24,000 bases of DNA from Candidatus Heimdallarchaeota archaeon (lineage in GTDB: Archaea; Asgardarchaeota; Heimdallarchaeia; JABLTI01), in assembly GCA_019058275.1 (NCBI GenBank), contig JAHLVW010000045.1, positions 81,664 to 105,663 on the forward strand, read 5' to 3'. The notes beneath the pieces are model-generated. The model did not search any database and had not been told where the DNA came from. It worked only from the letters and a program-made list of their open reading frames with translations. Positions 11,110-24,000 of the stretch are shown here, piece by piece. The stretch's first letter is position 1; every line of letters starts with the position of its first letter. Both the position numbers and the translations under genes were made by a program.

Positions 11110-11186
11110 GGCCGGGTAGTCTAGCACGGTATGATACTTGCTTTGGGAGTAAGTGGTCGCGGATTCAAATTCCGCCCCGGCCACCA
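11110..11186 (+). tRNA. tRNA-Pro, anticodon UGG, with encoded CCA
   Basis: Acceptor GGCCGGG/CCCGGCC, anticodon stem CTTGC/GTAAG with loop TT-TGG-GA, T arm GCGGA-TTCAAAT-TCCGC, discriminator A, CCA at 11184-11186. Confidence 0.9.
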
Positions 11187-11261: not shown

Positions 11262-11882
11262 TCATCTTTTCATTTTTATTGGATCATTTCTCTCTTCATC
11301 ATCTATTATTATAAACACTCCAACATTTCTTTTGATATATTCCTCTGTCCATTCTTTCTTAATCCTCCATCCCCCTGTTGCAAACACACCATTATCCATA
11401 TCGTAGAATGGTACATGTGTGTGGCTGATGATTAGTTTGTCTGTTGTCAATATCATTGGCAAGAAGTCAGAGCCTTTGTTTACTAATCGATTTTTTAGTG
11501 CATTTGCTGCTTGCCCCCATGTTTCATCTGCTCTTTTCACTAAACCGATATTATGTCCATGACAAACAATAATTCGCCCTTCCTTTGTGTTTAATATTGC
11601 CCATGGTAATACTTGAATGGTTGGGCAATCGAATAATATATTTCCTTCATGCCCCATCCCACCTGTTATGAAAATTATTTTTTCTTTCCATTTTTTATTG
11701 TCTATCCATTTTAAGAATCTCTTTAGCGCATTTTTTCCTTTTTCATCATAAGCATCTATAAAGTCGCCATTTAATATTATGAGATCTACTTTACTTGCAA
11801 CACTTTCTATTGCTTCTTTAAACTCCTCCTCTAAGCAACCATCTGCTCCTAAATGCGTATCACTAAATATCCCTGTCATCAT
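11262..11882 (-). CDS. Calcineurin-like metallophosphoesterase (MPE; candidate nuclease/phosphodiesterase)
   Basis: All five MPE motifs appear in order: SDTHLG (DxH), NGDFID (GDxxD), GGMGHEG (GNHE-like variant), VCHGHN (GH), ISHTHVP (GHxH-like). The start overlaps the helicase stop by 17-20 nt. AAGGAAAG SD. Confidence 0.82.
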   Translation of the reverse strand: MMTGIFSDTHLGADGCLEEEFKEAIESVASKVDLIILNGDFIDAYDEKGKNALKRFLKWIDNKKWKEKIIFITGGMGHEGNILFDCPTIQVLPWAILNTKEGRIIVCHGHNIGLVKRADETWGQAANALKNRLVNKGSDFLPMILTTDKLIISHTHVPFYDMDNGVFATGGWRIKKEWTEEYIKRNVGVFIIIDDEERNDPIKMKR

Positions 11883-14220
11883 CTTTCCTTATCATCTCCT
11901 CAAGCATTTTTCTTGTGCTGTCTTTTACTTTTTCTGAAGTATTACTCGTTATTTGACTTATTTCCTCATCTGCACTCTCTTGCAATAAGTCATGCATTGC
12001 TCTTAACACTCGCTTTATTCTTGTAAAAACCGCTTCAGCATTTCCTAACTCCCCTCCTCGATCATAAAGGGCAATCTTGTTTTCATAATAATTTGTGTAT
12101 GTACGAAATGATGACTCTGAGATATGAAGCTCTAATTCAATGCTTTTCATCAGCAATTCCTTTAACAATCTTATTGCTTGTTTCTTTTGTTCTTTTGAAA
12201 GAGCGTTTGTAAGACTTGCTACCTCAATAAGCATTCCACTTGTTTTTTCATCCCAAATGTGATTTTGTAGTTCATTTTCTCTTTTTTCCCTATTAATTAC
12301 TAATGGCGTTTCATTTTGAGTTGGACTCGTTGATTGGCTCTCAAGTAACTTCCCATCTTTTGAGTATCTCATTATTTCACTTGTTTCCCAACGAATGATC
12401 ATCTCACCAAATCGTATTGTTAGCTTCTCAAGTTCCTGCACTCTTGATTGCCCGTCAATGATAAAAAGAGGTGGTTTCATCCTGTTTCGTTCAACTGCTG
12501 TTTTGTTTATGTTAAGTTTATCAACAATTACTTTTTCGTTAGCTAACCTTTTTACTCTGTAAACTTTACCTTTACTTCCTAGATGTAATAGGTTCCCTGG
12601 TAGGGCTGAAAAGATTATGCGGCGCTCATCTATCGAAGCAATTTTCTCACTCTGATTTTCGTTAGTATTGTCTATTATCTCCCATCGTGGTTCTATCGAG
12701 CGGATTCGATGTTTCCTGATAAAAGCATTGACCCCATTTCTATTGGCAATAATCAAAGTCCTTTCAATAAAGGGCAAGTGATTGTTTTCAGTTGAAAGTA
12801 AACCTTTTGCAAACAATAATGCTATAGCTGTTCGTGTAATACTAGAATCTAATTCCTCTTTGCAAAAAGATAAAATATCATCAATCTTAGTTATGCCCAA
12901 AACCACCCTCAAGAGTACGAATGCTTGTGTTCTTTGCAGAGCTTTTGAGTCAAAGAGTATTCGTTCTGTTTTATTTTCTGTTAGAATCTCTTCTATTTTT
13001 TTGGGGTGATTCAAATAACAATTATCAATTGCTTTTTCATTATTGAATACTAATGAAAAATTCTTTTTCTTAGAAATATCTGAAAACCTTAATCTTCCCA
13101 ATCGTTGTAATAGACCATTTACTCCTGTAATTGGCCATGAAATATTTACTATATGAACGATATTTGGTATATCCATACCCAGCTCTAGTAATGATGTCGT
13201 AAAAACAAACCTTATTGTGCCATTATAAATTCCCTTCAGAATGTCTGTTTTTTCTTGACCAGTTAATTGACTATTAATACAAGCAAATGGCGAATGCCTT
13301 TGTAGGATTTCATCAGGTATGTTTGTTTTTTTCTTAAATAGCTCATTACATTTTGCTACCAACTCACCTACCTTTTGGATATCATCAACAAAGATCACGC
13401 AAGCCCCTTTTACTCTTCGCAAGTAAGGGTCTAACTTCTCTAATAGCAAATCTTCAATTGATTCTGGTTGAAGAATCATTACTCGAATAGTTCCTCTTGT
13501 TGCATTTCCGGTTATTATTTGAGCAGTTGGAAGGAATTTATCACGAAAGGTTTCTACTTCTTTTACTGTTGCAGAAGCTAGAACTACTCTTACTCTTGAA
13601 TTTATCTTTTTCAAGATCGCAATCATTTCTCTAATATGTGCTAGGTACCCTCCTGAACCTGCATGTATCTCATCAACAACAAAGACCCCAACATTAAGGA
13701 GCCAACTAAGAAAATCCTCATTGCCTTCTTTAAAAAAGCGATAGAACAATTTGTCTATGGTTGCTAGGAGGATTTTAGGTTTCTTCTTCTCTATTACTTC
13801 AATTTCTTTTCGAGTTAAATCTCCATTATATCTGCTATATGTTATCTTTTTTCCAGTTACTTCAAAGATCTTATTGCAATATTTTGCAATACGTTGTTCT
13901 TGATCCTCAGCAAGCTGTTTTGTTGGGTAGATTATAACAGCACAGTCTATTCTATTATTAGCAATGTCCTCAAAAATTGGAAATAAAAATGATTCAGATT
14001 TTCCTGAACCTGTTCCAACTGCGAGAAAACAATCATTTCTTTTGAGAATTGTGCTAATCGCTTCTAATTGATATTTATAGAGTTTATATGGCAATAATTC
14101 TTGGACACTTTTACCAATTATTTTCAAACCAACATCATCATCACCTACATAATAATCAGACACCTCACAATTTGATGGTGGTAGATCAAACACTGATTTC
14201 ACAGGAATTCCTTTTGACAT
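11863..14220 (-). CDS. SF2 DExH-box helicase with winged-helix and cysteine-less DUF1998-like C-terminal region (YprA/MrfA/Hrq1/DrmA-B-like)
   Basis: Motif I VGTGSGKS, Ia YPTKQLAEDQ, II VVDEIH, III ASAT, V TTSLLELGMDIP, VI QRLGRLRF. C-terminal IALYDRGGELGNAE resembles the LYD..PGG.G signature of DUF1998. The ATG at 14220 is chosen (GGAGGGATAAAG-ATG) rather than the upstream extension to 14262. Confidence 0.85.
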   Translation of the reverse strand: MSKGIPVKSVFDLPPSNCEVSDYYVGDDDVGLKIIGKSVQELLPYKLYKYQLEAISTILKRNDCFLAVGTGSGKSESFLFPIFEDIANNRIDCAVIIYPTKQLAEDQEQRIAKYCNKIFEVTGKKITYSRYNGDLTRKEIEVIEKKKPKILLATIDKLFYRFFKEGNEDFLSWLLNVGVFVVDEIHAGSGGYLAHIREMIAILKKINSRVRVVLASATVKEVETFRDKFLPTAQIITGNATRGTIRVMILQPESIEDLLLEKLDPYLRRVKGACVIFVDDIQKVGELVAKCNELFKKKTNIPDEILQRHSPFACINSQLTGQEKTDILKGIYNGTIRFVFTTSLLELGMDIPNIVHIVNISWPITGVNGLLQRLGRLRFSDISKKKNFSLVFNNEKAIDNCYLNHPKKIEEILTENKTERILFDSKALQRTQAFVLLRVVLGITKIDDILSFCKEELDSSITRTAIALLFAKGLLSTENNHLPFIERTLIIANRNGVNAFIRKHRIRSIEPRWEIIDNTNENQSEKIASIDERRIIFSALPGNLLHLGSKGKVYRVKRLANEKVIVDKLNINKTAVERNRMKPPLFIIDGQSRVQELEKLTIRFGEMIIRWETSEIMRYSKDGKLLESQSTSPTQNETPLVINREKRENELQNHIWDEKTSGMLIEVASLTNALSKEQKKQAIRLLKELLMKSIELELHISESSFRTYTNYYENKIALYDRGGELGNAEAVFTRIKRVLRAMHDLLQESADEEISQITSNTSEKVKDSTRKMLEEMIRKDDDRDI

Positions 14221-14222
14221 CT

Positions 14223-14774
14223 TTATCCCTCCACCAATCTTGCGCTGATAATGAACTCCCAAATTAACTCAACTTTATTTTTCAGAAATTTTTTGAATCC
14301 ATCATCGAAACCTTCCGGTGAGTATGCTTCAACTATTTCATCAACAGCTAAATCAATCATATCAATTTGATTATCTTCTTCTATAAATTCCACTTGACTA
14401 AGCATTTCTTTGATTCCCTGTTGAAGGAGTTCTTCCTGCTTCCTCATAGCAAAATTTCTTTCTTGCCTTTCTGCTATTTCATCAAGTCTTTGATATTCAA
14501 TTAACATTTCAGGTGGTAACTCTTTTCCAGTGGTCAAGCATAGATATAGCTTATTTAATTGAACCAATTTATCTTCCTTGAGCCAATATCTGTAAAGATT
14601 TCTACTTCCAACACGCTTGATCAAGCCATCTTGTTGTAATACCTCGAGAGTAAGATAGGTCTCACTGAGTGGTAAATTTACTTCAATAGAAATCTCTTTG
14701 GCACTCTTAGGATAATTGATACCATGTTTATTGTATTCCTCAAGCAAAAAGAGCATTACTCCAAGTTTATCCAT
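14223..14774 (-). CDS. wHTH DNA-binding protein with acidic/coiled C-terminal half
   Basis: wHTH-like N-terminus: YPKSAKEISIEVNLPLSETYLTLEVLQQDGLIKRVGSRNLYRYWL. The stop TAA at 14223-14225 lies 2 nt before the helicase ATG. An alternative ATG at 14756 shares one base with the upstream stop (TAATG). Confidence 0.7.
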   Translation of the reverse strand: MDKLGVMLFLLEEYNKHGINYPKSAKEISIEVNLPLSETYLTLEVLQQDGLIKRVGSRNLYRYWLKEDKLVQLNKLYLCLTTGKELPPEMLIEYQRLDEIAERQERNFAMRKQEELLQQGIKEMLSQVEFIEEDNQIDMIDLAVDEIVEAYSPEGFDDGFKKFLKNKVELIWEFIISARLVEG

Positions 14775-16252
14775 GATACAGGCAACTCCAACATTGTTTC
14801 ACGAAATTCATTAGTAATTGGTGATAATTGGCCAATTGTTCTACCATGCTTTTGATGATGTTTTTCTTCTCTATCAGGAAAGAGGAAAGCTAACTTTTCA
14901 AAATTAGTAATTTCATGATTCACTCTTTGTTCTATGTTTTTTGATCTCATCCAAACTAATGGTTGAAAATCTAATTTTTGTGTCTCCTCTTGGCAGATTT
15001 GGAAAATATTATCATTCAAATTCTCCCTAATCCCAGTTGGCAAACATTCCCACTCTAATACTAATCGCCACAATTTAACTGCTAAATTATCCCCGAAAAT
15101 TGAGTTTTTTATGGATAGGTGCTCCTCCTCTAACCTATTGCCTACATTTGTCAAGAGAAGATCAAATCTGTCGATTTCTTCCCTACAAGCATCTCTAAAA
15201 GAAGAATACTGTTTTCCTCGATAATAACAAGGGTTTTCGAAGAGTTCTTCCTTCTTTTCAAAAAGGATTTCGTATCCGTATCGTGTTACAGCGTAAGTTC
15301 TCCCCCCTTTGAACGCTGTTAACCGCTTAATTTCATCATGAGTAATTTCTTCAGCTAAGATGGCATCAACTAGCATGTAGTGACCTGCTTTCTTCAGTGA
15401 ATCACCAAAATCTAATGGTAACCCCATCCAAGAGAGATCAGAATAATAACTAAAGTGAGAGAAACCACCAACACCTAAATAGTTAATGCCTTTCTCTTCC
15501 AGAAGAGTCCATATTTCTTCTTCACAGAATTGATATTCTGTATTAAACAATACATCAGTAGGTGTTTGAGCCATACTGTTGAAGTTTCCAATCATGCGCT
15601 TGTGTCTGTAGAGACGGTCAGAAACTCTATGGCTTATTCCAAAATCATGTGGAGCTATTAGTTCATTCGTGAACTTCCAGAGAACCTCAGCAGCAAAACC
15701 TTCTGCAGAATTGCATAACTTGTTTGTATGACTATGATAACCAAAGAGATAAGCGTCACCGATTTTATCAATATGTTTCTTTAATGCTCTCTGATCAGGT
15801 AACATTTCTTGCAAAGTAAAAATAAGACTAAGATCACTCTTCATAGCTGTTTTCATGTAAAGATTATTGAAACCATTTCCTAATCTTATGGCATCAACAT
15901 AGCCTGCTCTCTTTGGTTCAATTCGTTCAACATTAAACCAACCGCAGAGGTTTGTTTTCCGCTCGTAATAGCAACCATGATCAAGTAATCGTTGCTTAAT
16001 CTCATCATCTATACCAGCATAATCAAAGATGTACTTGATATCTTGTAGCTTATATCTTACATCTCCAATATACAAATCATCATTGATTATTCGCACATCA
16101 TATCCTTGATAAATTGGAATTCCTAGTTTTGTTTTTACTTGCTTAATTTCATCTGCTTCCAAACCAGTTAATTTGTATATTTGATCATATAGTATATTGT
16201 TGCTATCTTTCACACATCGTATATACTGTTTTGTTTTATTTCTATTAGTCAT
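14756..16252 (-). CDS. Hypothetical protein (498 aa), no family recognised; His-rich motifs
   Basis: ATG at 16252 (MTNRNKTKQY), preceded by a purine-rich GAGAGATAAAA, 22 nt after the upstream stop. Contains GYHSHTNK, APHDFGISHR and GVGGFSHFSYY. The upstream extension to 16366 overlaps the preceding gene and is rejected. Confidence 0.7.
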   Translation of the reverse strand: MTNRNKTKQYIRCVKDSNNILYDQIYKLTGLEADEIKQVKTKLGIPIYQGYDVRIINDDLYIGDVRYKLQDIKYIFDYAGIDDEIKQRLLDHGCYYERKTNLCGWFNVERIEPKRAGYVDAIRLGNGFNNLYMKTAMKSDLSLIFTLQEMLPDQRALKKHIDKIGDAYLFGYHSHTNKLCNSAEGFAAEVLWKFTNELIAPHDFGISHRVSDRLYRHKRMIGNFNSMAQTPTDVLFNTEYQFCEEEIWTLLEEKGINYLGVGGFSHFSYYSDLSWMGLPLDFGDSLKKAGHYMLVDAILAEEITHDEIKRLTAFKGGRTYAVTRYGYEILFEKKEELFENPCYYRGKQYSSFRDACREEIDRFDLLLTNVGNRLEEEHLSIKNSIFGDNLAVKLWRLVLEWECLPTGIRENLNDNIFQICQEETQKLDFQPLVWMRSKNIEQRVNHEITNFEKLAFLFPDREEKHHQKHGRTIGQLSPITNEFRETMLELPVSWINLE

Positions 16253-16274: not shown

Positions 16275-18350
16275 TCAATTTCTTTCTTGAATGAGCTTAA
16301 ATGATGAACCGCACCTTGGACACCTTGTTGGTGTTGAACCTTGTTGCGGAAAGGGTGCTGTACCAAATGCTTCTAAGGGGATCATTTCACCTCGCTCATC
16401 ATAACAGAATCGGCAAAAATGGGTATATTCTTCCTCGCCCTCTTCTGTTTGTCCATCAAATCTCTTTGGATTTGATCTATAGAATTCATCAATGGAAAAT
16501 TGCATTTCTATTGTTTCCTCTTCTAGGAATGCTTCGCACGCAATAGTATCTTTTCTGAGCATCGAGGTTGTAATATAATCCATTTTTTCTTTTGGTACTT
16601 TTCGTTCTGCTGTTTCTCTTACATCCCGCCAAAAATTACAATGATTTTTTTCATAATAATAGCAGTCTCCACATTTCTTATAGAAATACTCAGGAATCTC
16701 TTTTGTTGAATAATATGTTATTCTTTTCCCTTTTGGTGGTTTACCTGTAACAGTTTTTAGTGATAATAAATCGTTTTTCTCAAGACTAACTAATGCTCGT
16801 TCAACATCTGAACTTAATAATGAAAGGTTTAAAGCAATCAGAGTAAGTGTCATTGGAATTGTTGCATATTCTAGCTCTTCTTTGACAGCTTGTTCGATTG
16901 CTAACCGGTCTTTCTTTCCTATTAAAGGTACATCCATTAAGTCAAGGTTTTGTCCTATTGCTTTGCTGATAAGGCCAAAATTCTTTTTTGCTTCGGGTGT
17001 CATGTGCTCTTGAAGACTTGCCAATAATATTGATACTTTGAAAATAGTAAAGCTATCTTGTGTTCTTGAAAGAATTTTAGCAATAACCTCATCTTCATCA
17101 TTACCTTTAGTTTTCAACCTTCCAAGTACCATTTGTAAATCATCATAAGCTAATTTTCCATCAGTAAAATTATGGAAGATTTCCGAGATACAATTCCAAT
17201 CCAAAGTATCATTTTGTGTTCTATTTTTAATATTCAATAAAACGCCCATGGGATCTTCTCGTATTTCTTTGAAATATGTTGAAGCTATAAGGAACTTCTT
17301 GCCAAATGGCGTAAGAGTGTATATCCCTGAATTTTCTCTTACTTTAGAAATTAACGCAAAGTCACCTAGTGATTTTTGATATTTATCAAATAGACCTTCA
17401 GAGAAATTCCTTGGTTTAAACAATATTTCAATTAACATTTTTTGAAGAAAATCATGACTAGCTTCTAATTTGGATATATTTTGGAGTAATCGACAAATGA
17501 GTGAGTTTTGAATTCGTTGAATCATTTTGCTTTTTGATGGTTGTCCAGAATAGAGTCTTAACAACATTAAATATGGGAGAACAGATTGAAATTCTTCTTT
17601 AAGGACCTCTGGATTCAAATCTGAATTAAAGTAAAATTCGTGATCTCCTGAAATTTTAACCGCTGTTGTTACTATTAACATGTTCTTTTGTTCATCTAAA
17701 GGAACTAAACCTGGAGAGATGTAATGCATTCTGATGTTTTGGTTATTCGCTTTTCTCTTGAAAAACAAAATGCCATCTATATCAAAAGTAGTGAAGCTTT
17801 TTCTGGTTCTTCTTAGCGAGTCATTTTCTCTTAAAGGATCAACAAAAATATATGCGTTTGTATGTGGGAGATTAATTCTGTTCTTTAATTTAACATCAGA
17901 ACTTTTCCGATAAAGTAAGTTTCGAAGCAGACAATCATAGCTTGTAATTATCACACAATCATTTGCTGATGGGTAGCTGTTCCCTTTGAATTTTGAAAAA
18001 GTGGACGCAACTCGAATGGCATATTTATTTGATAAGGGATAAAAACCTTCATTGGATAAATTCTCAGTGGAAAAATTAGTTTCTTGATGAAGATTGAGCA
18101 TAGTGAATATCTTTCTTGCTTCATCAGCTGTTCGCACAACGATTATAGAAGATGAGTTGGCGAATCGCGAATTTAGAAGAGCTGAAGTAACAGCAATTTG
18201 TAATTGTTCATCAAGATCTGGTGTCACAAATAGCATATCTTCATCACAGCTTACTGCTTTCCGAATAGTAGCATTATCAACACCTCTTGGGAAGGGATAA
18301 TCTCGAAGAACTGTAGTAATGGCTTTTGGTAAAGCATTCACAAATCTCAT
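16275..18350 (-). CDS. Large multidomain protein (691 aa): degenerate SF2-helicase-like N-domain, wHTH, and two C-terminal Cys clusters (zinc-ribbon-like)
   Basis: ATG at 18350 (GGAGATTAAT-ATG) lies 1 nt after the upstream TAA. The N-terminus follows SF2 RecA1 spacing, but the Walker A position reads VTPDLDEQ and the DExH position reads FVDPLRE. wHTH-like LSSDVERALVSLEKNDLLSLKTV. Cys clusters: CGDC-x7-HC and CRFC-x28-CPRC. Confidence 0.72.
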   Translation of the reverse strand: MRFVNALPKAITTVLRDYPFPRGVDNATIRKAVSCDEDMLFVTPDLDEQLQIAVTSALLNSRFANSSSIIVVRTADEARKIFTMLNLHQETNFSTENLSNEGFYPLSNKYAIRVASTFSKFKGNSYPSANDCVIITSYDCLLRNLLYRKSSDVKLKNRINLPHTNAYIFVDPLRENDSLRRTRKSFTTFDIDGILFFKRKANNQNIRMHYISPGLVPLDEQKNMLIVTTAVKISGDHEFYFNSDLNPEVLKEEFQSVLPYLMLLRLYSGQPSKSKMIQRIQNSLICRLLQNISKLEASHDFLQKMLIEILFKPRNFSEGLFDKYQKSLGDFALISKVRENSGIYTLTPFGKKFLIASTYFKEIREDPMGVLLNIKNRTQNDTLDWNCISEIFHNFTDGKLAYDDLQMVLGRLKTKGNDEDEVIAKILSRTQDSFTIFKVSILLASLQEHMTPEAKKNFGLISKAIGQNLDLMDVPLIGKKDRLAIEQAVKEELEYATIPMTLTLIALNLSLLSSDVERALVSLEKNDLLSLKTVTGKPPKGKRITYYSTKEIPEYFYKKCGDCYYYEKNHCNFWRDVRETAERKVPKEKMDYITTSMLRKDTIACEAFLEEETIEMQFSIDEFYRSNPKRFDGQTEEGEEEYTHFCRFCYDERGEMIPLEAFGTAPFPQQGSTPTRCPRCGSSFKLIQERN

Positions 18351-18351
18351 A

Positions 18352-18954
18352 TTAATCTCCCTTTTCTTTTTGTGTTGAATAGTTACCAATTGCTGTGCTC
18401 CCACAATATTCCTTGATAATTGCTCTTAAATTTTCTTTTAATTCATCTTGTGACAAATGACTATTTTCTACTAAACTGTTCAAAAGTGTCTCAATAAGTT
18501 CTGATAAGTACCCCTTGTCTGTTTCTAATTGATTTAGAATATATGCTAACTCCTCTCTGTTCTTTTGTAATTGCTTAATTCCTCTCATAGAAGGTTTCAT
18601 CTGTTTTATTGTAATAGCAATTTGGAGATCAGGATAGTAAATATTTAGAATAAAACGGAATAATGGATTATTGATATTAACTTGATAAGCTTGTGTTTTT
18701 GAACGCTGAAGTTTGGTTAAAATATTGTTTTTCACTAGAAAGCTAACTAAATTATCTATTGTCCTTGAAGATAAGGATAGTTTTTCATCTATTTTGAATG
18801 CTTTTAATGAAGGATAATAATATACACCCTGATTTAATGCCTTATCAATCAAATATTTGCAGAAGATAGCTACTGAGTTTGTTACTTTTATTTTTGAACT
18901 GAATAATCCCTCATGAAAATATTGCTCTTGTACAACTGATATTTCAGAAGGCAT
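18352..18954 (-). CDS. wHTH DNA-binding protein (200 aa), first gene of the operon
   Basis: HTH-like LSLSSRTIDNLVSFLVKNNILTKLQRSK, with a helical C-terminal half. ATG at 18954. Confidence 0.65.
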   Translation of the reverse strand: MPSEISVVQEQYFHEGLFSSKIKVTNSVAIFCKYLIDKALNQGVYYYPSLKAFKIDEKLSLSSRTIDNLVSFLVKNNILTKLQRSKTQAYQVNINNPLFRFILNIYYPDLQIAITIKQMKPSMRGIKQLQKNREELAYILNQLETDKGYLSELIETLLNSLVENSHLSQDELKENLRAIIKEYCGSTAIGNYSTQKEKGD

Positions 18955-18981
18955 AATTATCAGTCTAATACTGCTAGATTT

Positions 18982-18989
18982 TATTTAAA
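18982..18989 (-). promoter_or_regulatory. Archaeal-type TATA box (TTTAAATA on the minus strand) for the six-gene operon
   Basis: Centred about 31 nt upstream of the ATG at 18954. This would give a very short or absent 5' leader. Confidence 0.4.
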
Positions 18990-18993
18990 AATC

Positions 18994-19060
18994 AATAAAT
19001 TCGCTAAAAAACAGAAAGCAAAGCAAAATCAAAAAAATAAATCGCGGAAAAACAGAAACG
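18994..19060. promoter_or_regulatory. Pair of about 25-nt direct repeats upstream of the operon promoter (candidate operator)
   Basis: AATAAATTCGCTAAAAAACAGAAAG (18994-19018) and AATAAATCGCGGAAAAACAGAAACG (19036-19060). About 21 identities with one 1-nt indel; offset is 41-42 bp. Confidence 0.45.
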
Positions 19061-19270
19061 GGAATTCATGTTATAGTTAGAAATCGTAATAATCCAGAAA
19101 AGCTCAATTTCACATCTGAAAAGAAGCCTTCTCCTACCTTATTTTTCGAAACGAGAGATTTCTTTAAGTCCCTTTAAAATTTCTAAAATTGTGTTTTTTT
19201 CTTTTTTTTTCAAATTAAAAGTGAAACTCACAAGAAATCATCTTCTAAATTCCTCTCAGAAGCTTGTGTC

Positions 19271-19337
19271 GGAACGACGACCGTAAAAGGGGCCCCCCAC
19301 GAAGTGGGGGAAATAGGTCGCACGAGGGGAGCGTTCA
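19271..19337. ncRNA. GC-rich nested-hairpin element (candidate structured RNA; strand unresolved)
   Basis: Three nested helices: GAACG (19272-76) with CGTTC (19332-36); CGACC (19278-82) with GGTCG (19316-20); CCCCCAC (19294-19300) with GTGGGGG (19304-10), closing a GAA loop. About 60% GC in a roughly 30% GC intergenic region. A T8 run lies on the plus strand about 30 nt downstream. Confidence 0.4.
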
Positions 19338-19424
19338 GCAACAGAGAAAGATATTATTGAAACTAGTTTTTTTTCTTCCGAATTTGTGAATTATTCTTTA
19401 CAGTCTTTCTCCACTGATAATTTC

Positions 19425-19445
19425 GGAATTACTCAAAAAAATTCC
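19425..19445 (-). terminator. Hairpin with T7 run downstream of the LAGLIDADG-HTH gene
   Basis: The minus strand reads GGAATT-TTTTTGAGT-AATTCC, starting 13 nt after the stop at 19458. Confidence 0.35.
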
Positions 19446-19457
19446 TTATAGGTAAAA

Positions 19458-21056
19458 TCAGTTTTTTGTTTGGAAGAATGTTTTAAGGTAAAGTTTTAGA
19501 ACAGAATTTAGTATCTTATTATTAGTAACTTTTATACCAAAATAGTCGCTTATATTTTTGTAAAGGATTTCTTTATTTTCAGATGTAGACAGGATAAGAA
19601 GATATCTATTCCGAAGTGATAAATTTCTTACAAGAGAGAGTAATTTTTCATTAGGTTGTAAGTCTAACCTTGCTTGTGTTTTACGAGAATGAAATAAATC
19701 AAGCTTATACTTATGTAAAAAAGGCATCAAATTTATTGGTGTACTAGAAATCATTAGTAATAGTTTTTCCAAAAGGGGTATTGGGAGACTATCACTATAT
19801 TCATATGAAGCTAATTTTCCTTTGGAAATCCCAAGGTATTCAGCTAAGTCTTGTTGTGTCCAAGAAAAATTATTCCGAACATTTCGTAAGAAAATAGTAC
19901 ATCCTACGACATGAAGAGTAGTAAGAAGGGAAAAGTTGAAGTAGTTTTCACCTTGTAATGAGAGAATCATTTTTGGATTAAAATCATAGATCAAAAAGTC
20001 TGTTGAGTGGTTTACTAGATTATACCTTTGTCGAGTTAGATATTCGTTAAAGTCTATCTTTTTAATCGGATGCCTTGGATGTAATACATTACTAAGGATG
20101 TCTTTTGAAATAGCTTTAATATTAACGGTGTACCCTGTTCCTAAATCTACTTCTCTTTCAGTTAATGAATATTTAATTTTATTTACATCTAAAACTCTTG
20201 CGAATTCATAAGCAAAAAATTTAGAGGAAGAGCTGAAACTAACATTGTCTTTATAACTGCCGTCTGCATCTAGTGCTCCAGACCAAAACTCCCAACGAAG
20301 ATCCTCGTCTGAAACAAAAATAAGTGGTTCTCTTAAAGCATGATACTTTTTACCGGTAATAGGTTGATCAGTTAAAAAATTGACTAATCGCACAAGCCAC
20401 TTATTATTTAGATGAAGTAACCAGACTTTTTTCTCACCGGTAACAGGCCCTTCAAATCCAAAAAGAGTTTTAGCTAGTGTTTGCATCATTTCCATGTGTT
20501 CTTTTGAAAAATCAACTATCACCACATTATGATAATTTAGATGCCCATCACCAATAACTGAGCCAAGAAAATAAGCTAAATCTCTACTTATTCTTGTAGG
20601 CATGTGAAAGTGTTCTCCCCGAGCAGATTGGAATGGAACATAATCTTGTGTTAGGAATTCTTGCCAGTGATCACTTAACCTGAATAGTGGAAAAGGTAAG
20701 CGTTTCTGATTCTCAGTGTAATCAATGATCTTTTGCTGCCACTTCTTAATGGAATAATCAATAGCTGTATCTTGAAAATAATGATGACTTCTCTCAGCTA
20801 ATGTTAATGATCGCTTACGTAATTTGCTCGCTAAATCTACTGTTAAAGAAATGTATGGTAATCTTTGAATCAGCCGTTCTCCTGCAAGAAAGTCGTGCTT
20901 GCGGATCATTATAGAGTAAAGGTTAAGTTTTCCTTGTTCTAGAAATATTTTCTCTTGCTTTTTTTGTTCTATTAACTTGTTCGCTGTTAACCATTCATTC
21001 TTTGGTGTTGGTTCCGTGTCTATCAGTAATGGATCATTTCGCCAGTTAAGCGTCAT
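19458..21056 (-). CDS. Free-standing double-motif LAGLIDADG endonuclease-like protein fused to an XRE-type HTH
   Basis: Motif 1 LAYFLGSVIGDGHL and motif 2 RWEFWSGALDADGSY lie about 95 aa apart, and both keep the acidic residue. HTH: FSWTQQDLAEYLGISKGKLASYE. The ATG at 21056 is preferred to the TTG at 21059. Confidence 0.75.
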   Translation of the reverse strand: MTLNWRNDPLLIDTEPTPKNEWLTANKLIEQKKQEKIFLEQGKLNLYSIMIRKHDFLAGERLIQRLPYISLTVDLASKLRKRSLTLAERSHHYFQDTAIDYSIKKWQQKIIDYTENQKRLPFPLFRLSDHWQEFLTQDYVPFQSARGEHFHMPTRISRDLAYFLGSVIGDGHLNYHNVVIVDFSKEHMEMMQTLAKTLFGFEGPVTGEKKVWLLHLNNKWLVRLVNFLTDQPITGKKYHALREPLIFVSDEDLRWEFWSGALDADGSYKDNVSFSSSSKFFAYEFARVLDVNKIKYSLTEREVDLGTGYTVNIKAISKDILSNVLHPRHPIKKIDFNEYLTRQRYNLVNHSTDFLIYDFNPKMILSLQGENYFNFSLLTTLHVVGCTIFLRNVRNNFSWTQQDLAEYLGISKGKLASYEYSDSLPIPLLEKLLLMISSTPINLMPFLHKYKLDLFHSRKTQARLDLQPNEKLLSLVRNLSLRNRYLLILSTSENKEILYKNISDYFGIKVTNNKILNSVLKLYLKTFFQTKN

Positions 21057-21104
21057 CAAGAATCATTCTCCAATAGCTTTGGTACGATCATACAATAAAA
21101 AGTC

Positions 21105-21314
21105 CTATTCTTCTACATACCATATCTGTGTTGGATTCTTGGTTACTCGAACCTTTTTCTTTGACTGAATTAAAGCTATCATCTCAATATATTCATTTAC
21201 AGTTCGCCAATTTAATCCTGTTTTTTTAGCGATCTTTCCCACACTTTGTGGTTCATCTGTTACCGTAGCCAATATCTGCTTGAAAATTTCCTCAGATTTC
21301 CTTCTAGAATCCAT
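21105..21314 (-). CDS. Small wHTH protein (69 aa)
   Basis: EEIFKQILATVTDEPQSVGKIAKKTGLNWRTVNEYIEMIALIQ is a typical wHTH recognition unit. It lies 45-48 nt upstream of, and co-oriented with, the LAGLIDADG-HTH gene. Confidence 0.6.
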   Translation of the reverse strand: MDSRRKSEEIFKQILATVTDEPQSVGKIAKKTGLNWRTVNEYIEMIALIQSKKKVRVTKNPTQIWYVEE

Positions 21315-21439
21315 ACTGAAACCCTCGCTATTGTATTCTTATTAAATATTGCATACTTATTTTATATAAACGCTAGCTTTATAAATATACGAAAGTATAT
21401 TATTATACAATATCATTGTAAAATAACACGGTGACACTC

Positions 21440-23599
21440 ATGTCTAACAAACGATCAAAAAACAAGCAAGTGGTTTATTCAAGTAATAAACCGGGGAGAG
21501 GAGTGAAATTCTCTGTTTATACTAACGGAGAAATTGTAATAGAAGGAGTAGGCTCTCAATATGGGTTAAACATTCCTGCTCAGTTAAAACAATGGTTAAA
21601 TCTTCCAGAAAGAAATGACTCTTTCAATTGGAAACTGAAAGCTGATCTTGAAATTATTTACGAGGATAAAAAGCATTTCTTGAAAGATATTTCAGTAACC
21701 ATTCTATTTAAATCGAAGAAATGGTTCATTAGTCCAAGTAATGTTCTTATCGAAGGAAAAAATCTTCGCAGCATACTTTCTGAGAGATCTGAATTGATCT
21801 GTTCTTTAATTTTACCTAGAAAATATTGGAGTAAAAAATATCTCCAAAGTATAAATATATTCAATTCTTTTAACTACAGCGAAAAATCAAATTTCAAAAC
21901 AATAGCTATTGGTGGAAAAGCAACAGGATTTTATGAAGTAATTCAAGACAACAAAAAACAATTTTTTATTAAATTAGAAACAAGTATGAGTGAATCAGGA
22001 GCTATACAGTTTCCAGCAGAATTAGCTCAGGTATTTAAGAATTGGACTAGCAACAAAGAATTATTCCTTTGTTTGTTTGAAGATGGACAGAAGCAAATAG
22101 TTGAAGCATCATTTGTTAAAGATAAAAGTAGACCTGAACGCATTCGAAAAGTATTGAATTTTTCTTATAATGGTGAAAGAAAAAATGTTTCCGTAATTTG
22201 TCACTCAAGTAATTTAGAATTATCATCTAAGATGAAGCAAGATGTTGAACTTAAACAAATATTAGTAAAGTTTGGTTTTCAATTAAAATCACTCAAATCA
22301 AACGTTTTTCCATTGGGAAGTCATAAAAACAAAAGATTTGAAGAAAAAGTAAGATTACTTTTTACTAATGCTTTCAATAAAACTGATGCGATAGTCAGAG
22401 ATGAGGTGGCTTTATCACCTAATTATTTAAAATCTCTCCCAATTGAAAGCCAGTATACTTTTGATTTGCTAGTATTTTATAAAAACAAGCAATTACCAAC
22501 ACCATCAAAACTTCTACTTCTAATTGAGATAAAATCATCCTTAGGTAAGAGCAAAACCAAAGTAATTAATGATAGTATAGCTAACTTGAAACATTATCAA
22601 ACGCATTTAGGAGAGGAAAATGTTCTACCAATTTTTGTTATGAATGCTGTATTCAATAAAAGAAAAAAAGAAATTATTGATATGTATAGTATTAAAAACG
22701 GTATTTTGATTCTTGACAATGATAAATTATGTTTATTCCGAGATCAACCTGAATTGTTAATTGAAACTATTCTTTCATTTAAACAAAAAATATCTCTACT
22801 GCAAAATAATCCTTTAGTTACATATCATCCACAAACTAAAGAAATTGTCAGTATAGAGAAGCTAAGAAATGAAGCATTAACATTACTTATCAATAAATCG
22901 AAGGGGGAGTTAGTTGACCGAAAAACTTTGAATTCTTATTGCATGTTAATGAATATTCGTAAAGCAGATTTCAATCGGTTATACCATTACTATGAGTCAG
23001 CTGTTAATGAAAATCATTCGATGACATCTTCATTAACTCCTCCTATTTATAAAAATAAAAGTACAATTATTTACAAAGCCATACACAATCATTTGTGTGA
23101 AAACGGTTCTGTTTCCATGATTCAAAAAATACCACAACAATGCTTTAATCGATCAAACTCTGAATTAAGACTGCATTCTCAACAAATCTATGATTTTCTA
23201 CCAAAAGAAATGCATGTTGTGGGTTTGAAAGAATATAACCATCAAGGTAAAACCTATGAAAAAATCATTCAAAAAGAACTAGAATCAAAAAAATATGAAG
23301 TAATACCTAACATCTTATTCTATTTTGCATTTCGATTAATTGAAATTGATTTATTTGCATTGAGAGAAAAGGAGCTTCTTCTTACCAGCTGCAAAAATAT
23401 GAGTAGTTTTGTTGACTTCCCACAAACTACAGTGGCGATTAAAAGAGCTGTTAAATTATTATCTTATAGAAAACAATTATTGAATGCAGATAAAGGTTTA
23501 GTATGTGTTAGAGTAAATAAACAATTTAGAGATAAATTCAAAAAGAAATTCAATAATAAAGTGTTTGCTAAGGATATTGAAGTAAAGATTACTGATTAG
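21440..23599 (+). CDS. Large protein (719 aa) with a central PD-(D/E)xK nuclease signature and a second degenerate one at the C-terminus
   Basis: FEEKVRLLF ... YTFDLLVFYKNKQLPTPSKLLLLIEIKSS gives an E...D...ExK pattern. The C-terminus has YEKIIQKELESKKYEVIP ... LIEIDLFALREKELLLTSCK (D...SxK). Two N-terminal segments look like AbrB/SpoVT units (GLNIPAQLKQWLNLP and AIQFPAELAQVFKNW). The ATG at 21440 is preferred to the GTG at 21431. TAG stop. Confidence 0.7.
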   Translation: MSNKRSKNKQVVYSSNKPGRGVKFSVYTNGEIVIEGVGSQYGLNIPAQLKQWLNLPERNDSFNWKLKADLEIIYEDKKHFLKDISVTILFKSKKWFISPSNVLIEGKNLRSILSERSELICSLILPRKYWSKKYLQSINIFNSFNYSEKSNFKTIAIGGKATGFYEVIQDNKKQFFIKLETSMSESGAIQFPAELAQVFKNWTSNKELFLCLFEDGQKQIVEASFVKDKSRPERIRKVLNFSYNGERKNVSVICHSSNLELSSKMKQDVELKQILVKFGFQLKSLKSNVFPLGSHKNKRFEEKVRLLFTNAFNKTDAIVRDEVALSPNYLKSLPIESQYTFDLLVFYKNKQLPTPSKLLLLIEIKSSLGKSKTKVINDSIANLKHYQTHLGEENVLPIFVMNAVFNKRKKEIIDMYSIKNGILILDNDKLCLFRDQPELLIETILSFKQKISLLQNNPLVTYHPQTKEIVSIEKLRNEALTLLINKSKGELVDRKTLNSYCMLMNIRKADFNRLYHYYESAVNENHSMTSSLTPPIYKNKSTIIYKAIHNHLCENGSVSMIQKIPQQCFNRSNSELRLHSQQIYDFLPKEMHVVGLKEYNHQGKTYEKIIQKELESKKYEVIPNILFYFAFRLIEIDLFALREKELLLTSCKNMSSFVDFPQTTVAIKRAVKLLSYRKQLLNADKGLVCVRVNKQFRDKFKKKFNNKVFAKDIEVKITD

Positions 23600-23611: not shown

Positions 23612-24000
23612 ATGTTCATTGATAAAATTACTAGTAATTCATTACCTCCTCCAGGTGTTGGAATGACAATTAGTTTTCTTTCACTTGGAAAAGAAACAGA
23701 TACAAGTGTTGTAGTTAAGCATATCAAATCGGTTAAAAAAGCAAGTCGAAGACTTTATTGTTTATTATATGTCCATGAATACCAAGAATTAACAATTATC
23801 CAAAAAAGGGAAATTTTCAAACCTTTTATTGATGAAGAATTTGAATCTTTAAAGTATCACATGGTACTTTTTTCAGGATTATATCATATTACTGAAAATA
23901 TATCAAAATTACAAGATCTTGGAATGAATCATCCTAATGAACTTGTCCGTTGTGCTGCTATTTGGTCTCGAGCAAAATTAGGTGACCATAAGGATTTATT
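23612..24000 (+). CDS. Hypothetical protein with a HEAT/PBS-lyase-like repeat (partial; continues beyond the window)
   Basis: The ATG at 23612 is 12 nt after the upstream TAG. The frame is open to the window end. HPNELVRCAAIWSRAKLGDHKDL resembles a HEAT-like repeat (VR.AA..aLg.lGd). Confidence 0.55.
   Translation, partial: MFIDKITSNSLPPPGVGMTISFLSLGKETDTSVVVKHIKSVKKASRRLYCLLYVHEYQELTIIQKREIFKPFIDEEFESLKYHMVLFSGLYHITENISKLQDLGMNHPNELVRCAAIWSRAKLGDHKDL

What the first reader, a model, noticed from the sequence alone, without database searches (positions are those of the whole stretch)
19458..21314. Free-standing LAGLIDADG-XRE-HTH fusion preceded by its own small wHTH gene
Seen: two LAGLIDADG motifs (FLGSVIGDGHL, FWSGALDADGSY) lie about 95 aa apart and both retain the catalytic-position Asp. 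About 165 aa of N-terminal sequence of unknown type precede them. An XRE-type HTH and about 100 further residues follow. Established: archaeal LAGLIDADG enzymes are normally encoded inside inteins or rRNA/tRNA introns. Here there is no host gene, no Cys/Ser/Thr plus HN splice junctions, and no intron context. Inference: this is either a domesticated homing endonuclease working as a site-specific nuclease or regulator of the island, or a selfish free-standing homing gene.
Basis: partly seen in the sequence, partly recalled or inferred. Interest (0 to 1): 0.65.

Follow-up and report, generated by a model that had tools for sequence, protein, structure and literature searches.

The report
Free-standing LAGLIDADG-HTH nuclease on Cas1-like island
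The gene is a real, probably active stand-alone homing-type DNA endonuclease fused to a repressor-type DNA-binding domain, and in Heimdall (Asgard) archaea its family almost always sits at the head of operons encoding an extremely diverged Cas1-like integrase, here on a 14-kb island inserted in a tRNA-Pro gene.

Summary
Window 19458-21059(-) encodes a 533-aa protein with a unique N-domain (aa 1-155), a two-motif LAGLIDADG core, an XRE-type HTH (aa ~385-450) and an ~85-aa C-domain. A 69-aa winged-helix gene lies 45 nt upstream. It is not an intein or intron ORF. Both catalytic-position acidic residues are conserved across the family down to about 20% identity, and dN/dS is about 0.13.

New context:
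- The "six-gene operon" contains a Cas1/casposase-fold protein that is invisible to sequence profiles.
- In 25 of 29 Heimdallarchaeial loci, a homologue of this gene heads one of four operon types, all sharing that Cas1-like unit.
- The window's island is about 14.2 kb and is bounded by tRNA-Pro and a 30-nt copy of its 3' end. A sister strain with 98.6% identical flanks carries a different island of the same family at the same site.
- The gene and about 260-370 nt of conserved 3' non-coding DNA, including a GC-rich hairpin element, have a different history from the operon.

Best reading (about 0.4): an active sequence-specific endonuclease that is a constant backbone gene of these islands, drives homing-like replacement between related islands, and probably regulates itself through its HTH. 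Cas1 diversity in Asgard archaea is published; I could not check whether this partner protein was.

The parts
19458..21059 (-). LAGLIDADG-XRE-HTH protein ('c0'), 533 aa
   Evidence: ORF; Pfam; homologues; model and Foldseek
20595..21059 (-). N-terminal domain (aa 1-155), family-specific, strongly conserved (FQSARGE, RLPFPLFR); fold not identified
   Evidence: Alignment A1; no hits; mixed alpha/beta
20538..20570 (-). LAGLIDADG motif 1, FLGSVIGDGHL (G170-D171-G172 invariant)
20253..20288 (-). LAGLIDADG motif 2, FWSGALDADGSY (D264 invariant; D266 acidic in all, Glu in two distant members)
19710..19907 (-). XRE-type helix-turn-helix (aa ~385-450)
19461..19709 (-). C-terminal alpha/beta domain (aa ~451-533), unidentified
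21105..21314 (-). 69-aa winged-helix gene ('c22'), probably co-transcribed with c0
   Evidence: Pfam HTH_45; sequence; 70% identical copy in L007
21315..21430 (.). Divergent control region between c6 and c22-c0, with perfect palindromes TACAAT-GAT-ATTGTA (21406-21420) and ATATAC-TTTC-GTATAT (21385-21400) and TATA-like runs
19248..19347 (-). Conserved GC-rich structured element 3' of c0: four nested helices, with central hairpin CCCCCAC-UUC-GUGGGGG at 19293-19310
19360..19430 (-). Covarying inverted repeat AATTCCGAAATT/AAATTCGGAAG and palindrome AAACTAGTTT, between the c0 stop and the GC-rich element
18979..19176 (-). Operon control region: block TAAAGGGACTTAAAG (19162-19176), hairpin plus T-run (19119-19140), two TTTCTGTTTTT repeats (19048-19058, 19007-19017), TATA-like TTTTTAAATAAAA (18979-18991). 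Kept in loci L045/L067, where c0 is not adjacent
18352..18954 (-). First operon gene c9 (200 aa, weak wHTH)
16275..18404 (-). c4 (709 aa). Its C-terminal ~190 aa (wHTH plus Zn ribbons) corresponds to the N-terminus of the fused Cas1-like proteins of the other operon types
14756..16252 (-). Cas1/casposase-fold protein c12 (498 aa from M39; candidate triad E184, H266, D281 with D/E284)
14223..14774 (-). c13, 183-aa TrmB/Csa3-like wHTH
11863..14262 (-). SF2 helicase of Lhr/Cas3 type (799 aa)
11262..11882 (-). Metallophosphoesterase (206 aa)
21431..23599 (+). c6, 722-aa unknown protein, divergent partner of c22-c0
11110..11186 (+). tRNA-Pro(UGG): proximal island boundary. Homology with the sister strain breaks at about tRNA position 38
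   Evidence: distal 30-nt copy in L043

Best explanation
Shown:
- The ORF encodes a stand-alone, monomeric two-motif LAGLIDADG endonuclease. It carries a family-specific N-domain, an XRE helix-turn-helix and a small C-domain.
- It is a constant backbone gene of a family of Heimdallarchaeial genomic islands. The other constant part of these islands is an extremely diverged Cas1-like integrase unit.
- Here the island is about 14.2 kb and sits in tRNA-Pro.
- Across the wider family the protein keeps the features needed for catalysis.
- Together with about 260-370 nt of conserved 3' non-coding DNA, the gene recombines independently of the operon it heads.

Inferred mechanism:
- The LAGLIDADG saddle plus the HTH read a long, specific DNA site.
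- On related islands, or on the same locus in other cells, that carry a cleavable version of the site, the enzyme makes a staggered double-strand break.
- Repair copies the enzyme gene and variable lengths of flanking island DNA. This would explain the mosaic pattern and the replacement of whole islands at one tRNA site.
- At home, where the site is uncleavable, the protein binds the palindromic or repeated sites around its own gene and the operon promoter and acts as a regulator. I-TevI is a precedent.
For: Fold, motifs and HTH:
- GDG is invariant in motif 1. The motif-2 catalytic position is acidic in all 23 sequences aligned, down to 19% identity.
- c0 is under purifying selection, dN/dS 0.12-0.15.

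Distribution:
- There are several copies per genome, at least 9 contigs in one MAG.
- Relatives occur in unrelated contexts: next to topA, ABCE1 and alaS in DPANN-like contigs. That spread is typical of mobile endonuclease genes.
- 25 of 29 Heimdall loci have a Cas1-like unit within 5 kb downstream.

Separate histories of c0 and the operon:
- L001 and L010 share c0 at 78% aa identity, while their operon proteins are 27-53% identical.
- L002 and L011 operon proteins are mostly 88-93% identical (c13 67%), but their c0 is only 70%.
- dS for c0 is 1.38 against 0.11-0.20 for c9, c4, c12 and c5 in L002/L011. It is 0.89 against at least 1.7 for the operon in L001/L010.
- Identity breaks sharply about 25 nt before the c0 start and about 260-370 nt after its stop.

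Island replacement:
- Flanks are 98.6% identical to a sister strain, but the island differs.
- The island is bounded by direct repeats of the tRNA-Pro 3' end.

Candidate binding sites:
- Type-specific direct repeats and palindromes lie in the control regions.
Against: - No cleavage assay exists and no target site has been identified.
- Each of the three islands retrieved through the Cas1-like protein rather than through c0 (L044, L045, L067) still carries a c0. In two of them it is inverted together with c6. So no c0-less island has been seen. That fits an indispensable island component better than a purely selfish gene.
- In the L002/L011 pair, the neighbours c6 and c11 diverge along with c0. 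The mosaic can therefore also be ordinary module shuffling between mobile elements.
- GDG/DxDG motifs also have a structural role.
- Covariation in the 3' element is weak within type A, and the element is absent where c0 is not adjacent.
Confidence: 0.4

Rival explanations
1. Domesticated accessory nuclease of the Cas1-like machinery. c0 makes the specific breaks (3'-OH, 4-nt 3' overhangs) at the island ends or at the target. The Cas1-like integrase then joins them, in an island that lacks the PolB of classical casposons.
For: - c0 is linked to the Cas1-like unit in 25 of 29 loci, across four operon types.
- c0 is present in all three islands retrieved through the Cas1-like protein.
- The catalytic residues are kept.
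- The island contains no PolB and no recognisable tyrosine or serine recombinase.
- The island sits in a tRNA-Pro 3' end, a known casposon target (PMC9939771).
Against: - c0 similarity follows neither the integration target nor the Cas1-like protein. WIN and L007 share tRNA-Pro but their c0 is 34% identical. WIN and L002 have 60% identical c0 but use tRNA-Pro and tRNA-Ala.
- c0 and Cas1-like histories are incongruent.
- Relatives in DPANN-like contigs lack any Cas1 neighbour.
- No terminal inverted repeats were found.
Confidence: 0.25
2. WhiA-like transcription factor. The LAGLIDADG scaffold and the HTH only bind DNA, and the protein represses or activates the island's operon and its own gene without cutting.
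For: - The LAGLIDADG-plus-C-terminal-HTH architecture matches WhiA, and Foldseek aligns 323 columns to WhiA 3hyi.
- The XRE HTH resembles repressors of mobile elements.
- Conserved palindromes and type-specific direct repeats lie upstream of the operon and in the divergent promoter.
- c0 always lies upstream of the operon with a 260-600 nt control gap.
Against: - WhiA lost its catalytic acidic residues, whereas this family keeps both across very deep divergence.
- The islands encode several other wHTH proteins (c22, c9, c13 and the wHTH of c4) that could bind those repeats.
- The independent history of c0 is not expected of a dedicated operon regulator.
Confidence: 0.17
3. Effector or sensor nuclease of an array-less, CRISPR-derived defence system (ARAMP-like). 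c0 cuts invader DNA, or triggers the helicase/nuclease operon.
For: - Some homologous loci carry RAMP genes next to c0 (PF03787 8e-6; loci L027, L030, L031, L033, L036).
- The operons contain a Cas3/Lhr-like helicase, a metallophosphoesterase or a Cas4-like PD-(D/E)xK nuclease.
- The locus is hypervariable between strains.
- ARAMP systems with a distinct Cas1 are described for Asgard archaea (PMC8730458).
Against: - The window has no RAMP genes, and PADLOC gives no system-level match.
- LAGLIDADG enzymes recognise one long site, which suits general defence poorly.
- The island has att-like tRNA repeats, as an integrated element does.
Confidence: 0.08
4. Intein or intron remnant, or a decaying pseudogene.
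For: The closest sequence matches of the LAGLIDADG core are intein endonucleases: TliVMA at 1e-4 with the single sequence and 1e-9 with the profile.
Against: - There is no Hint domain, no splice-junction residues and no host gene. The N-domain is alpha/beta, not a Hint fold.
- The full-length architecture is conserved in more than 70 proteins under purifying selection.
- There is no group I or BHB intron context.
Confidence: 0.01

Closest known systems
I-DmoI / I-Tsp061I type monomeric archaeal LAGLIDADG homing endonucleases
   Same: - Two-motif pseudo-dimeric alpha-beta-beta-alpha-beta-beta-alpha core: TM ~0.72 normalised by I-DmoI length, rmsd ~2.9 A.
- An acidic residue at the end of each LAGLIDADG helix.
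   Different: - Those enzymes are about 180-220 aa and are encoded in rRNA introns.
- This protein is 533 aa, free-standing, and adds an N-domain, an XRE HTH and a C-domain.
- Cleavage is untested.
WhiA (bacterial LAGLIDADG-derived transcription factor)
   Same: LAGLIDADG scaffold followed by a C-terminal helix-turn-helix, with a chromosomal or stand-alone gene. Foldseek aligns 323 columns to 3hyi.
   Different: - WhiA lacks the catalytic acids (own knowledge of Kaiser et al. 2009) and has a sigma-r4-like HTH.
- This family keeps the acids and has an XRE HTH.
- The WhiA Pfam models do not match the window protein. One distant relative scores 21.8 bits, below the cut-off of 23.2.
HO endonuclease and I-TevI (homing enzymes with an added DNA-binding domain or a second role)
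   Same: A nuclease core extended by a separate DNA-binding module. HO is free-standing and drives cassette replacement by gene conversion. I-TevI uses its HTH and also represses its own promoter (own knowledge).
   Different: - HO keeps a Hint-like domain and uses zinc fingers.
- I-TevI is a GIY-YIG enzyme.
- Neither is linked to a Cas1-like integrase.
Casposons and the diverged Cas1 homologues / ARAMP loci of Asgard archaea (Makarova et al. 2020, CRISPR J; summarised in PMC8730458)
   Same: The neighbouring operon encodes a Cas1/casposase-fold protein. The island sits at a tRNA-Pro 3' end, like the Aciduliprofundum casposon. Some sister loci carry RAMP and Cas4-like genes.
   Different: - No PolB, no terminal inverted repeats and 30-nt rather than 14-15-nt flanking repeats.
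- The Cas1-like protein is undetectable by sequence profiles.
- I could not read the 2020 paper, so I cannot say whether it records the LAGLIDADG-HTH partner.

Membership tests
LAGLIDADG homing endonucleases (two-motif, monomeric) | Two alpha-beta-beta-alpha-beta-beta-alpha domains packed through the LAGLIDADG helices | tested here: met
   AlphaFold model pLDDT 92. Foldseek to I-DmoI, I-Tsp061I, PI-PfuI and PI-SceI. Pfam LAGLIDADG_3 26.7 bits against a cut-off of 22.5.
LAGLIDADG homing endonucleases (two-motif, monomeric) | Acidic metal-binding residue at the C-terminal end of each motif | tested here: met
   D171 is invariant. D266 is at least 90% Asp and Glu in the rest, in alignments reaching 19% identity.
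LAGLIDADG homing endonucleases (two-motif, monomeric) | Site-specific double-strand cleavage of a long target | not testable with these tools
   No assay is available and no target site was identified.
LAGLIDADG homing endonucleases (two-motif, monomeric) | Mobility of the gene by homing: presence/absence alleles and co-conversion tracts | tested here: inconclusive
   The history of c0 is incongruent with its neighbours and has sharp mosaic borders. No island lacking c0 was found, and module shuffling explains part of the pattern.
Inteins | Hint splicing domain, Cys/Ser/Thr at +1 and the N-terminus, a C-terminal His-Asn, and a host extein | tested here: not met
   No Intein_splicing/Hint match. 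The N-domain is alpha/beta. The ORF starts M(M)TLNW and ends QTKN-stop. It is flanked by intergenic DNA.
WhiA | Matches to the WhiA_N, LAGLIDADG_WhiA and HTH_WhiA models; loss of the catalytic acids | tested here: not met
   No WhiA model matches the window protein. The catalytic acids are retained. Only the general architecture and a Foldseek hit at 3.5e-4 are shared.
XRE / Cro-CI family HTH | Five-helix HTH_3 domain | tested here: met
   The family profile hits HipB at 7.7e-8, and also SinR and C.Esp1396I, at aa 385-450. The window protein alone scores HTH_3 at 21.0 bits, under the cut-off of 23. PF01381 is precomputed on many homologues.
Casposons | Cas1-family integrase | tested here: met
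   The top 38 Foldseek hits of the c12 model are all Cas1 or casposase; the best is 2.8e-8. The model pLDDT is only 69, and there is no sequence-level match.
Casposons | Family B DNA polymerase in the element | tested here: not met
   No island ORF in the window of at least 90 aa has a polymerase domain, nor do the three ORFs between 183 and 536 aa tested separately. The TPR and c11 genes lying just beyond the window in L043 were scanned against PHROGs only.
Casposons | Terminal inverted repeats and short target-site duplication | tested here: not met
   No TIRs between the island ends. The flanking direct repeats are about 30 nt of the tRNA-Pro 3' end, matching at 27 of 30 positions.
ARAMP (Asgard array-less RAMP systems) | Diverged Cas5/Cas7 (RAMP) genes in the locus | tested here: not met
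   No RAMP gene was detected among the window island's genes. They are present next to c0 homologues in L027, L030, L031, L033 and L036.

The most novel reading that the evidence does not exclude
The LAGLIDADG-HTH enzyme and the diverged Cas1-like integrase form a two-enzyme mobility system. It would be a PolB-less relative of casposons. In it, a homing-type endonuclease supplies specific staggered breaks with 3'-OH ends at island ends or at rival islands, and the Cas1-like protein joins them at tRNA 3' ends. The conserved structured element 3' of the endonuclease gene would act as a cofactor or control RNA.
Probability: 0.15. Interest if true: 0.85.

Novelty: new variant of a known kind. Interest (0 to 1): 0.6.

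Why it matters
- LAGLIDADG enzymes are known from introns and inteins, plus a few domesticated cases such as HO and WhiA. This is a large archaeal family of free-standing ones with a built-in repressor-type HTH. Its catalytic residues are conserved.
- If the nuclease drives island replacement, or feeds the Cas1-like integrase, it would show how CRISPR-adaptation-type integrases work outside CRISPR and casposons. It would also explain how whole islands are swapped at one tRNA site.
- The proteins could be a source of long-site nucleases with a modular extra DNA-binding domain.

Tried and rejected
- **Intein or intron origin.** No Hint domain, no splice residues and no intron model. Rejected.
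- **Known RNA family for the 3' element.** No Rfam match at the gathering threshold, and only chance-level hits at E<10.
- **Known defence system.** PADLOC gives only generic helicase hits.
- **Viral origin.** PHROGs gives only HTH and generic hits. No relatives in IMG/VR. Foldseek against BFVD returns only LAGLIDADG domains.
- **Identity of the N- and C-terminal domains.** Nothing from Pfam, NCBIfam, PDB profile searches or whole-model Foldseek. I could not crop the model.
- **Sequence-level proof of Cas1.** Pfam and PDB profile searches fail. Only the fold search succeeds.
- **Terminal inverted repeats of the island.** None found.
- **c0 as chooser of the tRNA target.** Rejected because c0 similarity does not follow the tRNA used.
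- **CRISPR-like mini-array reading of the 46-48-nt-period repeats upstream of the operons.** No turnover between close relatives L005 and L041. More likely protein-binding sites.
- **A simple 'empty site' for homing.** L045 and L067 lack c0 at the usual place but carry it inverted with c6 elsewhere in the island. They are rearrangements, not c0-less alleles.
- **Bacterial promoter/terminator scan.** Uninformative for an archaeon.
- **c6 (722 aa).** No match anywhere.
- **Literature.** The key paper, Makarova et al. 2020 (CRISPR J), and the HRAMP paper are not held.
Full report
**1. Observation.**
The minus strand of window 19458-21059 carries an ORF of 533 aa. Its TTG start is at 21059, and the database call starts one codon later, at ATG 21056.

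- Pfam LAGLIDADG_3 matches above its cut-off, 26.7 against 22.5 bits.
- A profile of 32 homologues hits intein and intron LAGLIDADG enzymes at positions 152-348. It hits XRE-type HTH proteins (HipB 7.7e-8, SinR, the ICEBs1 regulator, R-M controller proteins) at positions 385-450.
- An AlphaFold model built on that alignment is confident, with mean pLDDT 92.
- Foldseek matches the model to I-DmoI (TM ~0.72 normalised by I-DmoI length, rmsd ~2.9 A over ~186 columns), I-Tsp061I, archaeal intein endonucleases and, more weakly, WhiA.
- The first ~155 residues form a mixed alpha/beta domain and the last ~85 a small alpha/beta domain. Neither matches anything.
- There is no Hint domain, no splice-junction residues, no host gene and no intron model.
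- The 69-aa ORF at 21105-21314 is a winged-helix protein (HTH_45, 29 bits against a cut-off of 25.5). It ends 45 nt before the large ORF, which has a GGAG-type ribosome-binding site.

**2. The family.**
A search of the clustered protein collection gave 71 relatives of 520-560 aa covering the full length, at 31-68% identity. Those that carry a source name are nearly all labelled Heimdallarchaeota, and several occur per genome.

- One representative genome set gave 34 loci, with at least nine contigs from a single MAG.
- An exhaustive profile search found 82 clusters at 50% identity with E<1e-30.
- In 32 Heimdall sequences, G170-D171-G172 and D264, D266 and G267 are invariant. The N-domain is the most conserved part.
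- In an alignment that adds distant members at 19-28% identity, GDG stays invariant. The second catalytic position is Asp in at least 90% of sequences and Glu in the rest.
- dN/dS between type-A copies is 0.12-0.15.

WhiA, the known LAGLIDADG-plus-HTH transcription factor, has lost these acids (own knowledge). This family has not.

**3. What the gene sits next to.**
I clustered the ORFs of 42 loci. Here c0 is the LAGLIDADG-HTH protein. It nearly always lies upstream of, and on the same strand as, one of four operon types, separated by a gap of roughly 260-600 nt.

| Type | Operon content | Loci |
|---|---|---|
| A | c9, c4, c12, c13, SF2 helicase, metallophosphoesterase | window, L001, L002, L009-L012, L044 |
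| B | a 1,380-aa protein and a DEAD/MZB helicase | several |
| C | c8, c2, c7 and a Cas4-like PD-(D/E)xK nuclease | several |
| D | the same nuclease inverted, then c16, c2, c15 | several |

- Profile comparisons show that c12 is homologous to residues ~200-654 of c2 (hhalign probability 97.7%). They also show that the C-terminus of c4 equals the wHTH/Zn-ribbon N-terminus of c2, and that the type-B giant contains both.
- I noticed a G-x-x-H...(L/F)-D-x-x-(D/E) motif in all of them. I therefore modelled the window's c12 (498 aa from M39; pLDDT 69).
- The top 38 Foldseek hits are all Cas1 or casposase, with a best E of 2.8e-8.
- No sequence profile detects this relationship.
- Conserved candidates for the Cas1 triad are E184, H266 and D281 (with D/E284) in c12, and E432, H515, D525 and E528 in c2.
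- Of 29 Heimdall loci with at least 4 kb downstream of c0, 25 have this Cas1-like unit within 5 kb.
- Some loci also carry RAMP-family genes next to c0.
- In about 16 loci a TnpB-type gene lies immediately upstream of c0.

**4. The island.**
The window's right-hand neighbours (methyltransferase, cupin, Ldh_2, metallo-beta-lactamase, homocysteine methyltransferase) are 97-100% identical in protein to those beside locus L007 of a public Heimdallarchaeote genome. The DNA there is 98.6% identical. The region between the flanks differs completely: c0 is 34% identical, c6 35%, c22 70%, and the operon is type A against type C.

- Homology breaks inside tRNA-Pro at about position 38.
- A contig from the window's own population (L043) extends the window. 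It shows TPR, c11, c6, c22 and c0, and beyond the TPR gene a 30-nt imperfect copy of the tRNA-Pro 3' end.
- The DNA outside that copy is 100% identical to the sister genome again.
- The island is therefore about 14.2 kb and is bounded by direct repeats of the tRNA 3' end.
- The sister strain has an 11-kb island of the same family, plus further tRNA-fragment repeats.
- Another type-A island abuts tRNA-Ala.
- No polymerase or known recombinase domain was found in any island ORF inside the window. The TPR and c11 genes in L043 were only scanned against PHROGs.
- The island ends have no inverted repeats.

The Cas1-like protein is the only visible candidate integrase. A tRNA-Pro 3' end is the known target of the Aciduliprofundum casposon (PMC9939771).

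**5. The gene has its own history.**
Operon proteins split type A into three groups that are only 27-69% identical to each other: 27-58% for c9, c4, c12, c13 and the helicase, and 59-69% for the metallophosphoesterase. The groups are WIN/L001/L012/L044, L002/L009/L010/L011, and L045 alone. c0 does not follow this split.

- L001 and L010 share c0 at 78% across the groups.
- L002 and L011 have operon proteins that are mostly 88-93% identical (c13 67%), but their c0 is only 70%.
- For L002/L011, synonymous divergence of c0 is 1.38 against 0.11-0.20 for c9, c4, c12 and the helicase. For L001/L010 it is 0.89 against at least 1.7 for the operon.
- Sliding identity shows sharp borders about 25 nt before the c0 start and about 260-370 nt after its stop.
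- The conserved 3' non-coding stretch contains several features:
  - a covarying inverted repeat;
  - the palindrome AAACTAGTTT;
  - a GC-rich element at window 19248-19347, 83% mean column identity across the seven aligned type-A loci, whose central hairpin shows compensatory changes (CCCCCAC/GUGGGGG, CUCCAC/GUGGAG, CUCCAUC/GAUGGAG; related hairpins occur in types B, C and D).
- Variants of this element group with c0, not with the operon.
- A covariance model finds the element after c0 in eight of the nine type-A loci, the exception being L045. It finds it weakly in one type-C locus and one type-D locus, and not in L045 or L067.
- Within type A the helices are 87% paired, against 27-46% in slid controls, but covariation is not significant.
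- Downstream of the element lies the operon's own control region: the block TAAAGGGAC..., a hairpin with a T-run, two to four type-specific direct repeats with a period of about 46-48 nt, and a TATA-like box. This region is kept in L045 and L067.

**6. Limits of the homing reading.**
Three islands were retrieved through the Cas1-like protein rather than through c0. All three contain a c0. In L045 and L067 the divergent pair c6 / small gene-c0 is inverted as a block relative to the operon. So I saw rearranged alleles but no c0-less island. In the L002/L011 pair the neighbours c6 and c11 diverge together with c0, so ordinary module shuffling between islands explains part of the mosaic. Against a role as chooser of the integration site, c0 similarity does not follow the tRNA used.

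**7. Wider relatives.**
Distant full-length or N-domain-plus-core relatives occur in DPANN-like contigs; one is labelled Diapherotrites. They have no Cas1 neighbour. They lie convergent with topA in five contigs, overlapping the start of ABCE1/RLI in at least three, or next to alaS. The architecture therefore predates the Cas1 association. Positions beside highly conserved essential genes are what free-standing homing endonuclease genes show in phages (own knowledge). A conserved housekeeping role in those lineages cannot be excluded.

**8. Interpretation.**
The best-supported reading, at about 0.4, is an active, free-standing LAGLIDADG endonuclease with extra DNA-binding modules. It is a constant backbone gene of Cas1-like, tRNA-integrating islands. 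It promotes homing-like gene conversion or replacement between related islands, and its XRE HTH probably also regulates its own unit and the operon.

| Rival reading | Confidence |
|---|---|
| Accessory nuclease of the Cas1-like integrase | 0.25 |
| Non-cleaving WhiA-like regulator | 0.17 |
| Defence effector of an ARAMP-like system | 0.08 |
| Intein remnant | 0.01 |

The steps that are shown are the fold, motif conservation, purifying selection, the Cas1-fold neighbour, the island borders, and the incongruent history of c0. Cleavage, the target site, regulation and any interplay with the Cas1-like protein are inferred.

**9. Novelty.**
Extremely diverged Cas1 homologues and array-less ARAMP loci in Asgard archaea were reported by Makarova et al. 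2020. That work is summarised in PMC8730458 and PMC12669027, which mention HNH and PD-(D/E)xK nucleases. I could not read the 2020 paper. No held paper links LAGLIDADG proteins to these systems. I therefore rate this a new variant of a known kind, with the caveat that the partner protein may already be noted there.

Noticed in passing
window 14756-16252 (-): This 'hypothetical' 498-aa protein of the operon has a Cas1/casposase fold: its top 38 Foldseek hits are all Cas1 or casposase. It is invisible to Pfam, NCBIfam, PADLOC and PDB sequence profiles. Homologous units are fused to wHTH and Zn-ribbon domains in three other operon types.
   Followed up: yes
window 11110-11186, and beyond window position 24000 (L043 27-56): The region from tRNA-Pro to about 1.4 kb past the window end is a 14.2-kb island flanked by 30-nt direct repeats of the tRNA-Pro 3' end. 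A strain with 98.6% identical flanks (L007) carries a different 11-kb island of the same family there, plus extra tRNA-fragment repeats.
   Followed up: yes
L007 16179-16305: The sister strain's tRNA-Pro(UGG) has a ~48-nt insert at the canonical 37/38 intron position and a compensatory C31-G39 to G31-C39 change. ARAGORN without intron search misses it. The window's copy has no intron.
   Followed up: partly
window 19248-19347 (-), extended to 19213-19430: A conserved GC-rich structured element lies directly 3' of the endonuclease gene in an AT-rich genome. It has no Rfam match. Its variants follow the endonuclease gene rather than the operon, and it is absent where the endonuclease gene is not adjacent (L045, L067).
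   Followed up: partly
window 19119-19140 (-): The terminator-like hairpin AAGG-TAGGAGA-AGGCTTCTTTT has its loop in the opposite orientation in the window, L015 and L045 compared with L001, L002 and L009-L012 (GAAGCC-TTCTCCT-GCCTTC). It looks like a small palindrome-mediated inversion.
   Followed up: no
L001, L003, L009, L012, L016-L020, L022, L024, L026, L029, L032, L038, L039, L044 (just upstream of c0): A TnpB-type gene (OrfB_IS605 plus Cas12f1-like TNB) lies immediately upstream of the endonuclease gene in about 16 loci, usually divergent. This is far more often than chance insertion would suggest.
   Followed up: no
L016 9801-9888 and L026 9800-9887: A tRNA-Leu(UAG) gene sits about 110 nt upstream of the endonuclease gene, at the same spacing, in two loci of different operon types and different genomes.
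   Followed up: no
L046, L048-L053, L056, L062: Distant relatives of the protein in DPANN-like contigs lie next to essential genes rather than Cas1-like operons: convergent with topA, overlapping the start of ABCE1/RLI, or next to alaS. The topA of L048 itself contains an intein.
   Followed up: partly
L045 1117-5321 and L067 2688-6894: The divergent pair c6 / small gene-c0 is inverted as a block relative to the operon, compared with the window's arrangement. The small gene there is MazE/AbrB-like instead of the window's wHTH.
   Followed up: partly
window 18979-19060; L037 and L005/L007 gaps: Each operon type has its own two to four direct repeats with a period of about 46-48 nt just upstream of a TATA-like box: type A TTTCTGTTTTT, type C GGAtTTTtTTACCAG, type D GAAAGTCCGAtTTTTT. 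All types share a motif resembling AGAGGGAnGTATTTCC further upstream.
   Followed up: partly
L002/L011, gene c13 (window equivalent 14223-14774): Within an otherwise nearly identical operon pair (dS 0.1-0.2), the small wHTH gene c13 has dS 0.69 and only 67% aa identity. This is a second mosaic patch.
   Followed up: no
L001 12720-14826 and L044 6902-8974: The c4 gene of this type-A copy is broken into two or three ORFs in two genomes that share the same chromosomal context. This suggests decay of that island copy while its endonuclease gene stays intact.
   Followed up: no
L033 6595-11572: Two paralogous endonuclease genes lie in tandem, separated by a Zn-finger gene pair, upstream of one type-C operon with RAMP genes nearby.
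   Followed up: no
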